Source: a virus | Strand: one strand, 5' to 3' | IMG/VR virus record: IMGVR_UViG_3300003667_000040 | Location: 1 to 64,000 of that record | DNA length: 64,000 nucleotides | Part shown: piece after piece, positions 9,236-10,598 of the stretch | Position numbering within the stretch: position 1 is the stretch's first letter | Layout: the number at the start of each line of letters is the position of its first letter | Translations under genes and position numbers: made by a program | Notes under the pieces: generated by a model | What the model saw: only the letters and a program-made list of their open reading frames with translations | What the model was told of the DNA's origin: nothing | Databases searched by the model: none

Positions 9236-10594
9236 CTAAACGGATGTATAGTTATTTATTCTTGATTGTAAGATATTCCATGCCATAGCCGCGCAACTTG
9301 GAACCTGGCCGTTTCCGATTGCCTTTAGCCTTTCGATTCTACCCTTGGCACCCGTAGCAAGTCTATCTGTTCCAGTTTCCCATGATCCATTATGCCATGC
9401 TTTCCTAGCCTTATCGCTAATAAAACTATCGTGCCATGAATCGAAAATATCCTTCGGCATAGGCTCAAGCGAAGTCCAATTCTTAGGCCAGCCCATTAGT
9501 AATTCAACCCATGAGGGATTAAGCTGCCCGCCGTTGCCCGCACTCATTGACCGTCTTTCTTCTTCGCTTATTTCTCCGTTTTCTTTCATTTCGTGCAGTT
9601 TTTCAAAATCACGAGTTGTTCCGCCATTTAATTTTCCAGATGCTACGGGAGACGGCCATTTATTAACGCTACGAGTTAGACTGTCAAAAGCTCCGCTATC
9701 CCTGCTCACATTATTAGCATCGTCGGCGGTAGGCGTAGGCCATCTTTGTACGGCCTCCTTTAGATTACTTTTATATGTATCACTATCTATTAGTGTCCTA
9801 CCTTTAACCGCCGTGTTGAAGTCGAACCTGGTAGGAGTGGGCCACATTTCAGAAGGTTTAGGATATGCTACATATTCGCGCAAGGTAGAATGATTTTCCC
9901 TCCCCGGTCGATTAGTTTCATATTGCTTTTTTAACGCTTCCTCATTTCGTATGGGTAAAGAGTCCATGCAATTAGGGGTAGGATACATCATAGCAGCGCC
10001 TTGTAATCCAAATTTACCCGATGAATCTTTTTGATTAGGGCCGCCATGCGTGGCAAGGCTAGCTAATGGCGTAGGCAACAATCCAGATTCGTTCTCGTCT
10101 ATGCGGCGCTCCGGCGTCGATTGCTCCCAAAACTCCATATTCCGAACAGTACCCCATTTCGGCCAAGTCTCCGAGTACGGTTCCAAGTCCCCTAGAAGTG
10201 AGCATTGGAGAGTTTTCCACGAATGCGTATCTAGGTCGTACCTCGCCAATGATCCGCGCCATTTCCTTCCAGAGTCCTGAATGCTCTCCGGTAATTCCGG
10301 CTCCCTTTCCGGCAACGCTGATATCGGTACAGGGAAACCCGCCAGAAACCACGTCAACAATTCCTCGCCACGGCTTTCCGTTAAAATTTCGAACGTCATC
10401 CCAAACCGGAAAAGGCGGGAGTATGCCGTCATTTTGTCGCTGGACAAGTACGCTTGCGGGATAGGGTTCGAGTTCAACGGCGCAGACGGTACGCCATCCG
10501 AGCAAGGTTCCTCCCAATATGCCGCCGCCCGCACCGGCAAAGAGAGCGAGTTCTCGAAGTCCTTCATAAGTGCTTGACTGATTATCCATCCCAT
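9236..10594 (-). CDS. dcm: C5-cytosine DNA methyltransferase, C-terminal part (variable region plus motifs IX/X); the frame is open through the whole N-terminal-domain ORF
   Basis: The C-terminus has NPSWVELLMGWPKNWT and RLKAIGNGQVP (motif X). There are five (L/Y/W)P(T/S)P modules. It is in the +1 frame relative to ORF 10059..10598 and overlaps all of it. Confidence 0.6.
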   Translation of the reverse strand: MGWIISQALMKDFENSLSLPVRAAAYWEEPCSDGVPSAPLNSNPIPQAYLSSDKMTAYSRLFRFGMTFEILTESRGEELLTWFLAGFPVPISALPEREPELPESIQDSGRKWRGSLARYDLDTHSWKTLQCSLLGDLEPYSETWPKWGTVRNMEFWEQSTPERRIDENESGLLPTPLASLATHGGPNQKDSSGKFGLQGAAMMYPTPNCMDSLPIRNEEALKKQYETNRPGRENHSTLREYVAYPKPSEMWPTPTRFDFNTAVKGRTLIDSDTYKSNLKEAVQRWPTPTADDANNVSRDSGAFDSLTRSVNKWPSPVASGKLNGGTTRDFEKLHEMKENGEISEEERRSMSAGNGGQLNPSWVELLMGWPKNWTSLEPMPKDIFDSWHDSFISDKARKAWHNGSWETGTDRLATGAKGRIERLKAIGNGQVPSCAAMAWNILQSRINNYTSV

Positions 10595-10598
10595 TCAT
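10059..10598 (-). CDS. dcm: C5-cytosine DNA methyltransferase, N-terminal catalytic part (motifs I-VIII)
   Basis: FAGAGGG (motif I), GGFPCTDISVAGKG (motif IV, catalytic Cys), FVENSP (motif VI) and GAPHRRERIWIVA (motif VIII). It stops right after motif VIII. Confidence 0.8.
   Translation of the reverse strand: MNGMDNQSSTYEGLRELALFAGAGGGILGGTLLGWRTVCAVELEPYPASVLVQRQNDGILPPFPVWDDVRNFNGKPWRGIVDVVSGGFPCTDISVAGKGAGITGEHSGLWKEMARIIGEVRPRYAFVENSPMLTSRGLGTVLGDLAEMGYCSEYGVLGAIDAGAPHRRERIWIVAYAIS

What the first reader, a model, noticed from the sequence alone, without database searches (positions are those of the whole stretch)
10059..10598. C5-cytosine methyltransferase split across two same-strand frames, with both frames open for about 535 nt
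ORF 10059..10598 encodes motifs I (FAGAGG), IV (GFPCTDIS), VI (ENSP) and VIII (HRRERIWIVA), then hits a stop. The motif IX-like region (NPSWVELLMGWPKNWT) and motif X (AIGNGQVP) lie at the end of ORF 9236..10594, which is in the +1 frame.

A simple frameshift near 10060-10100 would join them. There, frame A reads ...RIWIVAYAIS* and frame B reads ...ENESGLLPTPLAS.

Frame B is not open only downstream of that point. It is stop-free from 10594, with the two starts 4 nt apart in ATGAATGGGATGG, so the entire catalytic-domain coding region is open in two frames. By a rough composition argument about 7 stops would be expected there by chance.

The frame-B product over the overlap does not look like junk: ...FLAGFPVPISALPEREPELPES...SLARYDLDTHSWKTLQCSLLGDLEPYSETWPKWGTVRN...

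Four explanations are possible:
- A sequencing or assembly indel in a single gene.
- A frameshift-inactivated pseudogene.
- Programmed +1/-2 frameshifting, or a two-subunit methyltransferase in the style of the split M.AquI enzyme, whose subunits are encoded by overlapping ORFs.
- Genuine overprinting, with two proteins made from one DNA stretch.
Basis: partly seen in the sequence, partly recalled or inferred. Interest (0 to 1): 0.7.

Follow-up and report, generated by a model that had tools for sequence, protein, structure and literature searches.

The report
Phage cytosine methylase gene read in two frames
This phage DNA-methylase gene carries two long overlapping reading frames that are both conserved in over a hundred related phage and prophage genes examined here, so it most likely makes a two-subunit enzyme and is neither a sequencing error nor a dead gene.

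Summary
On the minus strand, ORF A (10059..10598, 179 aa, C5-methyltransferase motifs I-VIII) and ORF B (9236..10594, 452 aa, +1 frame) start 4 nt apart and are both open for 536 nt.

This is not peculiar to the window. I chose 152 complete relatives on frame-A similarity alone. In 129 of them both frames are open over the whole gene (230-360 codons). Frame B's ATG is conserved in 123 of 123 standard-type loci, while frame A's start codon varies. Synonymous shuffles predict about 5 frame-B stops per gene, and none are seen.

Purifying selection switches frame along the gene:
- Frame A dominates over motifs I-VIII.
- Frame B dominates over the variable region.
- Both are constrained at the 3' end.

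The closest relative (L185) differs from the window by a swapped variable-region cassette of length 3n+1. That swap moved motif X from frame A to frame B.

The best explanation is a heterodimeric methyltransferase made from two overlapping ORFs. The window has the M.AquI-type partition (alpha I-VIII; beta variable region, IX, X). Most relatives have the M.EcoHK31I-type partition. Expression and activity were not tested. Indel, pseudogene and programmed frameshift readings are disfavoured. I rate it a new variant of a known kind.

The parts
10059..10598 (-). ORF A, 179 aa. It is the catalytic half of a C5-cytosine methyltransferase (motifs I, IV, VI, VIII) and stops 4 codons after the HRRERIWIVA motif (VIII).
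   Evidence: Pfam PF00145 at E = 4.7e-28. phrog_363 at 8.6e-56. M.HhaI at 3e-15 over residues 11-176.
9236..10594 (-). ORF B, 452 aa, in the +1 frame. In order it has an N-terminal overprinted region, a variable region with five (W/L/Y)P(T/S)P repeats, an IX-like motif and motif X.
   Evidence: More than 5400 homologues starting MSW... phrog_1008 at 1.9e-35. AF2 model with residues 1-170 mostly below pLDDT 50 and residues 330-450 at 88-93.
10592..10608 (-). Shared translation-start region. It holds the SD-like AAGGA (10604-10608), the A ATG (10596-10598), the stop TGA of the upstream ORF (10595-10597) and the B ATG (10592-10594).
   Evidence: Sequence read. In relatives the B ATG is conserved in 123 of 123 loci and always follows an in-frame TGA or TAA. 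The A start is ATG, GTG, TTG or lies further upstream.
10059..10594 (-). Dual-coded stretch where both frames are open (536 nt).
   Evidence: Synonymous-shuffle expectation of 3.05 stops, P(0) = 0.02. Family-wide mean expectation of 5.0 stops, with no internal stops in frame B in nearly all loci.
10151..10222 (-). Frame-B motifs SWKT (10211-10222) and TWPKWG (10151-10168), written over frame A's motif VI region (ENSP at 10206-10217).
   Evidence: Synonymous third positions of frame A are frozen at these B residues in 101 non-redundant relatives. Ala GCC is 100% (B Pro), Gly GGG is 99% (B Gly) and Val GTG is 93% (B Trp). AF2 predicts hairpins at B residues 117-128 and 149-156.
10067..10103 (-). 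Nucleotides that encode motif VIII (HRRERIWIVA, frame A) and the first PTP repeat (SGLLPTP, frame B) together.
   Evidence: The same co-encoding is seen in all relatives examined.
9341..10066 (-). Variable-region (target-recognition) cassette, read only in frame B. It contains the further PTP repeats MYPTP, MWPTP, RWPTP and KWPSP and a helical segment.
   Evidence: Homology to the syntenic relative L185 breaks at 10068 and resumes at 9340. The cassette is 728 nt here and 178 nt in L185, a difference of 550 = 3n+1.
9473..9523 (-). Motif IX-like segment LNPSWVELLMGWPKNWT (frame B).
   Evidence: N, P, W, V, E, L, M, W and P are nearly invariant in 120 frame-B homologues. This segment is conserved here even though frame A is closed.
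9299..9340 (-). Motif X segment RIERLKAIGNGQVP (frame B here, frame A in most relatives).
   Evidence: It is homologous to the frame-A C-terminus of L185 (RMDRLEAIGNGQIP..AWNILQSRINHHTPV). phrog_32758 and phrog_363 match the C-terminus.
10595..10861 (-). Upstream 88-aa ORF with no known domain. Its stop overlaps the A start and abuts the B start.
   Evidence: No Pfam hit. Translational coupling is inferred, not shown.

Best explanation
The locus belongs to a large family of phage and prophage C5-cytosine methyltransferase genes that are translated in two same-strand frames from a shared ribosome-binding region. The two starts lie 4 nt apart.

Frame A gives the catalytic large-domain half (motifs I-VIII). 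Frame B gives a second polypeptide made of:
- an N-terminal tail of about 170 residues, overprinted on the catalytic coding sequence; it is mostly disordered but holds a few conserved elements (SWKT, TWPxWG, GLWPTP);
- the variable, target-recognition region with WPTP repeats;
- an IX-like motif;
- in this window, motif X as well.

The two polypeptides most likely assemble into one heterodimeric methyltransferase that modifies phage DNA. The window has the M.AquI-type partition (alpha = I-VIII; beta = variable region, IX, X). Most relatives have the M.EcoHK31I-type partition (alpha = I-VIII + X; beta, in another frame, carries IX).

The window's layout arose from a variable-region cassette swap of length 3n+1, which moved motif X from frame A to frame B.

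Shown here: both ORFs exist, and both frames are under purifying selection across the family. Inferred: both are translated, they associate, and the complex is active.
For: 1. Openness of both frames. Relatives were picked on frame-A similarity only. Of 152 complete loci, 129 have both frames open over the whole gene and ending together. After removing redundancy the figure is 109 of 132. The third frame is open for only 25-50 codons.

2. Stop avoidance. Synonymous shuffles of frame A predict 5.0 frame-B stops per gene, with a mean P(0) of 0.007. No internal stops are seen in nearly all loci. The +2 frame is not depleted: 15.6 observed against 12.9 expected.

3. Start codons. Frame B's ATG is conserved in 123 of 123 loci. 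Frame A's start 4 nt upstream is ATG in 64, GTG in 27, TTG in 16 and absent in 16.

4. Site-specific freezing of frame-A synonymous positions exactly where frame B has conserved residues. At one column B's Trp (94%) is more conserved than A's Met (74%).

5. Divergence by codon position (frame-A positions 1, 2, 3):
- motifs I-VIII: 0.22, 0.14, 0.47, so frame A dominates;
- linker: 0.44, 0.30, 0.29, so frame B dominates;
- last 35 codons: 0.25, 0.15, 0.30, so both are constrained.

6. Structure of a short-type frame-A protein. AF2 gives a folded large domain, a disordered linker (pLDDT 26-33) and a C-terminal helix. Foldseek matches only about 174 columns of M.HhaI, so frame A has no folded small domain.

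7. Closest relative. L185 is syntenic at 82-86% nucleotide identity and differs only by the cassette.

8. Recurrence of the window's layout. 'A stops just after VIII, B carries X' recurs in L015-type gut-phage contigs (18 with G7), and 'A stops just after VIII' also in L133 and L150, whose frame B keeps the short-type C-terminus.

9. Precedent. M.EcoHK31I's beta chain is encoded entirely in another frame inside alpha, and both chains are required (PMC2836561). M.AquI's alpha holds I-VIII and its beta holds IX-X (PMC3404938).
Against: - There is no expression or activity data for any member.
- Frame B's N-terminal 170 residues are predicted mostly disordered and have no match in Pfam, NCBIfam or the PDB.
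- Much of their apparent conservation follows from frame A. Frame-A third positions differ in 47% of pairs.
- Natural single-chain hybrids exist, such as P0122, so a fused enzyme can also work.
- In the window alone the open-frame statistic is only P = 0.02.
- The IX and X assignments rest on motif resemblance, PHROG matches and homology to relatives. Pfam's model does not reach them.
- Homology to M.EcoHK31I or M.AquI themselves could not be tested.
Confidence: 0.6

Rival explanations
1. The enzyme has two subunits, but the beta subunit starts at an internal codon of frame B, for example near the first PTP repeat. The upstream 170 open codons are then an untranslated or functionless relic of the family's ancestry.
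For: - The N-terminal region of B has low AF2 confidence.
- A public gene call on this sequence, P0001, starts at MMYPTP.
- In the distant gut-phage group B seems to start at an internal GTG behind a perfect Shine-Dalgarno sequence.
- M.EcoHK31I's beta tolerates N-terminal truncation and internal starts (PMC2836561).
Against: - The B ATG is conserved in 123 of 123 loci and frame-B stops are avoided family-wide.
- Frozen synonymous sites at SWKT and TWPxWG lie upstream of any such internal start.
- I noticed no strong internal SD before the window's internal Met codons when reading the sequence. This was by eye, not a scan.
- P0001's start is what a gene caller that forbids long overlaps would produce.
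Confidence: 0.15
2. Programmed +1 (or -2) ribosomal frameshifting near the end of ORF A joins motifs I-VIII to the frame-B variable region, IX and X, giving one canonical chain of about 455 aa.
For: - The fused order I-VIII, TRD, IX, X would be canonical.
- Selection switches from frame A to frame B at this point.
- Natural one-frame hybrids exist.
Against: - The 3' ends of frame A share no slippery or stimulatory sequence and fall at different places in different members.
- The AGC-TAG context is not a known +1 shift site. This rests on my own knowledge.
- Frameshifting does not explain why frame B upstream is open, has its own conserved ATG and has constrained residues.
- Most relatives would need two shifts, yet they keep frame A's linker open.
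Confidence: 0.08
3. The gene is inactivated or decaying. The cassette swap broke frame A, so the locus no longer makes an active methyltransferase.
For: - Frame A lacks motif X.
- A few relatives are clearly damaged. L114 has frame A cut before motif VIII, L179 has frame B cut at 87 aa, and L138 and L143 have frames swapped in the linker.
Against: - Frame B is intact for 452 codons, with conserved PTP repeats, IX and X.
- The layout recurs in unrelated lineages.
- It matches the functional M.AquI partition (PMC3404938).
Confidence: 0.08
4. A sequencing or assembly indel has split a single gene.
For: Homopolymer-length differences do occur in a related group (G7, G6, G8).
Against: - I saw no homopolymer run at the junction in the sequence read.
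- The difference from the closest relative is a 550-nt cassette, not 1 nt.
- Motif VIII and the first PTP repeat share the same nucleotides, as in every relative.
- The layout recurs in independent assemblies.
Confidence: 0.04

Closest known systems
M.EcoHK31I (E. coli HK31; YGGCCR), a heterodimeric C5-methyltransferase
   Same: It has two polypeptides from one DNA stretch. Beta is encoded entirely in another reading frame inside the alpha gene. Alpha holds I-VIII and X, beta holds IX. Both are needed, and beta's N-terminus contributes to association (PMC2836561, PMC3404938). Most relatives of the window have exactly this distribution of motifs between frames.
   Different: - In this family the second ORF spans the whole gene, from 4 nt after the first start, not just part of it.
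- The selection pattern places the variable region in the second frame, not in alpha.
- In the window itself motif X is also in frame B, and ORF B runs 823 nt beyond ORF A.
- Sequence homology to M.EcoHK31I was not tested because I could not obtain its sequence.
M.AquI (Synechococcus/Agmenellum PCC 7002; CYCGRG), alpha and beta subunits
   Same: Alpha carries I-VIII and beta carries the distal variable region plus IX-X, encoded by overlapping ORFs (PMC3404938). This is the window's partition.
   Different: - As I recall, the M.AquI ORFs overlap only briefly. Here the overlap is 536 nt and covers all of alpha.
- Beta here carries a 170-residue overprinted N-terminal region.
- Homology was not tested.
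PHROG families phrog_363 and phrog_1008 (both labelled 'DNA methyltransferase')
   Same: Frame A matches phrog_363 (8.6e-56) and frame B matches phrog_1008 (1.9e-35). Both reading frames are therefore already catalogued as phage protein families.
   Different: Nothing I saw in the PHROG output links the two families. I found no paper stating that they are two frames of the same genes.
Classical overprinted gene pairs of small viruses and phages (for example phiX174 overlapping genes, lambda Rz/Rz1)
   Same: Same-strand nested ORFs, with the younger product largely disordered.
   Different: - The overlap here is 230-360 codons in most members.
- The two frames exchange the role of constrained frame along the gene.
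- The two products appear to be parts of one enzyme.

Membership tests
C5-cytosine DNA methyltransferase (Pfam PF00145) | Motif I FxGxGG (AdoMet binding), motif IV PC (catalytic Cys), motif VI ENV and motif VIII QxRxR in one domain that scores above the Pfam gathering threshold | tested here: met
   ORF A has FAGAGG, GFPCTDIS, ENSP and HRRERIW. It scores 99 bits against a cut-off of 22. It matches M.HhaI at 3e-15.
C5-cytosine DNA methyltransferase (Pfam PF00145) | Motifs IX and X and the target-recognition domain in the same polypeptide as I-VIII (the monomeric enzyme) | tested here: not met
   ORF A stops 4 codons after the HRRERIWIVA motif (VIII). The IX-like motif and motif X lie in the +1 frame.
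C5-cytosine DNA methyltransferase (Pfam PF00145) | Transfers a methyl group to cytosine C5 in DNA | not testable with these tools
   Needs bisulfite or nanopore methylation data, or an enzyme assay.
M.AquI-type split methyltransferase | Alpha has I-VIII, beta has the distal variable region plus IX and X, and the ORFs overlap on the same strand | tested here: met
   The definition is from PMC3404938. The overlap here is 536 nt.
M.AquI-type split methyltransferase | Both subunits are required and sufficient for activity | not testable with these tools
   No expression system was available.
M.EcoHK31I-type nested methyltransferase | Beta is encoded wholly inside alpha in another frame; alpha has I-VIII + X and beta has IX | tested here: not met
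   In the window ORF B extends 823 nt beyond ORF A and carries X. The feature is met in 129 of 152 relatives, including the closest one, L185.
M.EcoHK31I-type nested methyltransferase | Sequence homology to M.EcoHK31I alpha and beta | not tested
   Lee et al. 1995 (PMC306636) is not held, and no sequence was available.
Programmed ribosomal frameshift gene | A conserved shift-prone site, with or without a stimulator, at the frame junction | tested here: not met
   The 12 frame-A ends that were compared share no motif and lie at different positions.
Overprinted (overlapping) viral gene pair | The second frame is open in divergent relatives beyond expectation | tested here: met
Overprinted (overlapping) viral gene pair | Purifying selection on the second frame, independent of the first | tested here: met
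   Frozen synonymous sites and the conserved ATG. Frame-B codon periodicity in the linker.
Overprinted (overlapping) viral gene pair | Both products are made | not testable with these tools
   Needs ribosome profiling or proteomics.

The most novel reading that the evidence does not exclude
An entire family of phage methyltransferase genes, comprising thousands of 50%-identity clusters, is translated in two frames over its whole length (230-360 codons). It yields two obligate subunits, and the constrained frame hops from A to B and back along the gene. Indels and cassette swaps move modules (variable region, IX, X) between the two frames. This generates EcoHK31I-like, AquI-like and fused enzymes within one lineage, which would explain how the known heterodimeric methyltransferases arose. 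It would also be among the longest conserved same-strand dual-coding regions known in prokaryotic viruses.
Probability: 0.5. Interest if true: 0.8.

Novelty: new variant of a known kind. Interest (0 to 1): 0.7.

Why it matters
Gene callers and curators allow one protein per locus. In this family the public records examined here annotate only one frame. GenBank phage phPA-G lists only the frame-B ORF, as 'hypothetical protein'. In the E. coli hits the only annotated product is 'DNA cytosine methyltransferase'. Half of a probable enzyme is therefore missing from annotation.

If both products are made, the family is a large natural data set on several questions:
- how two proteins share one sequence;
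- how a new polypeptide segment is overprinted on an ancient catalytic domain;
- how split methyltransferases originate.

It would also matter for predicting phage anti-restriction methylation. Naturally split methyltransferases have been used as scaffolds for targeted methylation tools (PMC2836561).

Tried and rejected
- Pfam and NCBIfam on frame B gave nothing above noise apart from a spurious SHOCT hit.
- A PDB sequence search with frame B gave nothing.
- Foldseek on the frame-B model gave only noise, because the model is mostly low-confidence.
- Megablast of window 1-25000 against known phages found no match, so there is no named relative.
- E. coli genomes carry the family in only 4 of 5426 genomes. 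There is therefore no well-studied strain with ribosome-profiling data to lean on.
- A chimeric A+B query was used to look for canonical single-frame relatives. Most hits are A-only. The few high-coverage hits are low-complexity linker alignments or indel hybrids, some of which lack motif VIII or X. P0122 and P0124 are genuine one-frame hybrids.
- The B-synonymous shuffle of the linker ran on loci already selected for an open frame A. On its own it is circular, so I rely on the unbiased census.
- An OLGenie-style dN/dS was not run. Sites synonymous in both frames are too rare in this overlap phase. Codon-position divergence and site-wise third-position entropy were used instead.
- The original M.EcoHK31I paper could not be read.
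- Seven literature searches found no description of this family's dual coding.
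Full report
**Observation**

On the minus strand, ORF A (10059..10598, 179 aa) carries C5-methyltransferase motifs I (FAGAGG), IV (GFPCTDIS), VI (ENSP) and VIII (HRRERIWIVA), then stops. ORF B (9236..10594, 452 aa) is in the +1 frame. It starts 4 nt downstream of A's ATG, within ATGAATGGGATGG. It carries LNPSWVELLMGWPKNWT and RIERLKAIGNGQVP near its end.

Both frames are stop-free over 536 nt, while the third frame has 11 stops there. Pfam places A in PF00145 (4.7e-28) and sees nothing in B.

From base composition, 8 frame-B stops are expected. When A's protein sequence and codon usage are held fixed, 3.05 are expected and P(0) is 0.02. The window alone is therefore only suggestive.

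The tail of motif VIII in A (RIWIVAY) and the first PTP repeat in B (SGLLPTP) are written on the same nucleotides. A single frameshift could not retain both.

**The pattern is family-wide**

A sensitive blastn against phage genomes hit only the overlap region, at 70-76% identity, in phages of Salmonella, Pseudomonas and Acinetobacter, among others. In the four I examined, both frames are open across the entire gene. Frame A is then a short complete methylase ending ...RVDRLKAxGNGQVP, and frame B starts MSWL... In Pseudomonas phage phPA-G the annotated CDS is the frame-B ORF, labelled 'hypothetical protein'.

To avoid bias I collected loci on frame-A similarity alone: 80 viral contigs and 80 bacterial or MAG contigs. 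Hosts range from Acinetobacter, Pseudomonas, Citrobacter and Pantoea to Leptospira, Akkermansia, Synechococcus and Saccharimonadales.

| Layout among 152 complete loci | Count |
|---|---|
| Both frames open over the whole gene (230-360 codons), ending within 60 nt of each other | 129 |
| Frame A ends early (includes the window) | 14 |
| Frame B ends early | 9 |

After removing redundancy, 109 of 132 loci have both frames open. The +2 frame is open for only 25-50 codons.

Frame B as a protein has more than 5400 database homologues. Its first 170 residues alone hit 4141 clusters at 50% identity, nearly always at the N-terminus. PHROGs already holds both products as separate families, phrog_363 and phrog_1008.

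**Both frames are under selection**

- Stops. Synonymous-codon shuffles of frame A predict 5.0 frame-B stops per gene, with a mean P(0) of 0.007. No internal stops occur in nearly all loci. The +2 frame is not depleted: 15.6 observed against 12.9 expected.
- Start codons. In the 123 loci with the standard start, frame B's start is ATG in all 123 and always follows an in-frame TGA or TAA. Frame A's start 4 nt upstream is ATG in 64, GTG in 27, TTG in 16 and not a start codon at all in 16.
- Frozen synonymous sites. In 101 non-redundant genes, frame-A synonymous third positions are frozen where frame B has key residues. An Ala codon is GCC in 100% (B Pro in TWPxWG). A Gly codon is GGG in 99%. A Val codon is GTG in 93% (B Trp in SWKT). 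At one column B's Trp (94%) is more conserved than A's Met (74%).
- Divergence by frame-A codon position 1, 2, 3:

| Region | Pos 1 | Pos 2 | Pos 3 | Dominant frame |
|---|---|---|---|---|
| Motifs I-VIII | 0.22 | 0.14 | 0.47 | A |
| Linker between VIII and X | 0.44 | 0.30 | 0.29 | B (this is frame-B periodicity) |
| Last 35 codons | 0.25 | 0.15 | 0.30 | both |

In the last 35 codons frame A reads EPxVGRVAxGVxxRVDRLKAxGNGQVP, and frame B reads NPxWVEWLMGWPxGWTxLKPLE on the same bases.

**Structure predictions agree**

A short-type frame-A protein (P0141) folds as a methyltransferase large domain (residues 1-173, pLDDT 70-92). It has a disordered linker (residues 174-253, pLDDT 26-33) and a C-terminal helix. 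Foldseek aligns only about 174 columns to M.HhaI and M.HaeIII, so frame A has no folded small domain.

The window's frame-B model is mostly disordered over residues 1-170. The exceptions are a helix (73-86) and two hairpins at the SWKT and WPKWG motifs. It is confident over residues 330-450, which hold IX and X.

**How the window's version arose**

The closest relative, L185, is syntenic with the window at 82-86% nucleotide identity. It has the common layout. Its frame A is 282 aa and ends RMDRLEAIGNGQIPQVARIAWNILQSRINHHTPV, which is clearly the homologue of the window's frame-B C-terminus. Its frame B is 262 aa.

Homology breaks only across the variable region. That region is 728 nt in the window (10068-9340) and 178 nt in L185, a difference of 550 = 3n+1. 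A cassette swap, not a 1-nt indel, therefore moved motif X into frame B and left frame A to stop just after motif VIII.

The family shows several layouts:
- 'A stops just after VIII, B carries variable region, IX and X' is seen in the window and in a distant gut-phage group (18 contigs).
- In L133 and L150 frame A also stops just after VIII, but frame B keeps the short-type C-terminus with no motif X.
- In L052, L068, L070 and L155 frame A runs on into a degenerate relic of its old X reading (for example EPDVGRVADELADQLDIFGVIRA*). This lies exactly where B reads the IX-like motif. B then continues through an insert to a fresh motif X.
- In P0122 an indel within the variable region splits that region between the frames.

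**Mechanism**

The most economical reading is two polypeptides from one shared start region that assemble into one enzyme.

In the window the SD-like AAGGA lies 5 nt before A's ATG and 9 nt before B's ATG. The stop codon of the upstream 88-aa ORF overlaps A's ATG and abuts B's ATG. This would allow translational coupling to either start; that step is inferred.

Frame A supplies AdoMet binding and catalysis. Frame B supplies recognition (PTP repeats), IX and, here, the motif-X helix that normally completes the large domain.

There is experimental precedent. M.EcoHK31I needs an alpha chain (I-VIII, X) and a beta chain (IX) that is encoded entirely in another frame inside alpha, and beta's N-terminus contributes to association (PMC2836561). 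M.AquI has alpha I-VIII and beta IX-X (PMC3404938).

What is shown here: the ORFs, their conservation and the selection acting on each frame. What is inferred: translation of both, their association and activity.

**Rivals**

- Programmed +1 frameshifting would give a canonical chain. It has no conserved shift site. It does not explain B's conserved ATG, its open and constrained upstream region, or A's open linker in most relatives.
- An internal start for B remains possible. It is a sub-variant of the two-subunit model.
- Pseudogene and sequencing-error readings are weakened by the recurrence of the layout and by the cassette-sized difference from L185.

**Novelty**

The architecture (a split C5-methyltransferase with its second subunit in another frame) is known from two enzymes. 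Four things appear to be undescribed in the literature I could search:
- the very large phage family;
- an overlap that covers the whole gene;
- the hopping of the constrained frame along the gene;
- the shuffling of modules between frames.

Whether M.EcoHK31I itself belongs to this family could not be tested.

Noticed in passing
window 32511..33208 (minus strand): A second pair of almost fully overlapping ORFs. One is 231 aa with an N-terminal TM helix and an ERE-rich coiled coil. The other is 227 aa in another frame with a signal-like hydrophobic N-terminus (..LLLAVSPFLHCQ..). There are also 154- and 135-aa ORFs on the plus strand. Purine-rich low-complexity coding probably keeps several frames open. 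Even so, the TM-plus-coiled-coil ORF with an embedded ORF recalls the spanin Rz/Rz1 layout.
   Followed up: no
L015 nt ~3137 versus L016 nt ~1353 (and L010-L024, L203-L214): In a distant gut-phage branch of the family the gene holds a poly-G tract: G7 in 18 contigs, G6 in 4 and G8 in 1. G7 gives the two-ORF layout. G6 fuses frame A (motifs I-VI) to frame B and loses motif VIII. This could be homopolymer sequencing error or slipped-strand phase variation.
   Followed up: partly
window 10592..10608 and 10595..10861: The stop codon TGA of the upstream 88-aa ORF (no known domain) overlaps the ATG of ORF A (ATGA). It is followed directly by the ATG of ORF B. Termination-reinitiation could therefore feed either frame.
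   Followed up: partly
L002 (Pseudomonas phage VB_PaD_phPA-G, PP083311.1 23175-23903): The deposited annotation lists only the frame-B ORF, as 'hypothetical protein'. The frame-A ORF, which reads as a methyltransferase, is open on the same bases but not annotated.
   Followed up: yes
L216 1011-2450 (P0122 locus): A third way of sharing modules. Frame A (479 aa) carries I-VIII, a linker, the last PTP repeat, IX, an insert and X. Frame B (about 265 aa) carries the MSW N-terminal region and the first half of the variable region. It was found on at least 4 contigs.
   Followed up: partly
L052, L068, L070 (3' end of frame A): Frame A ends in a degenerate copy of its motif-X reading (for example EPDVGRVADELADQLDIFGVIRA*), exactly where frame B reads NPTWVEWLMNWPINWT. 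This looks like a relic showing that the long layout derives from the short one by duplication or insertion.
   Followed up: partly
Family-wide, variable region of frame B: By my regex count, the number of PTP-type repeats ranges from 0 to 5 between members (5 in the window when KWPSP is included). Long members carry an extra insert of about 100-150 aa between IX and X (..ETRxREVLRMLRxG..CEHANRxD..). Its role is unknown.
   Followed up: no
window 7443..8570 and 10837..12165: The neighbours are an RNA ligase (PF09414 with a PHA02142 OB-fold) and a DnaB-type helicase. The window has no close relative among 50,697 deposited phage genomes.
   Followed up: partly
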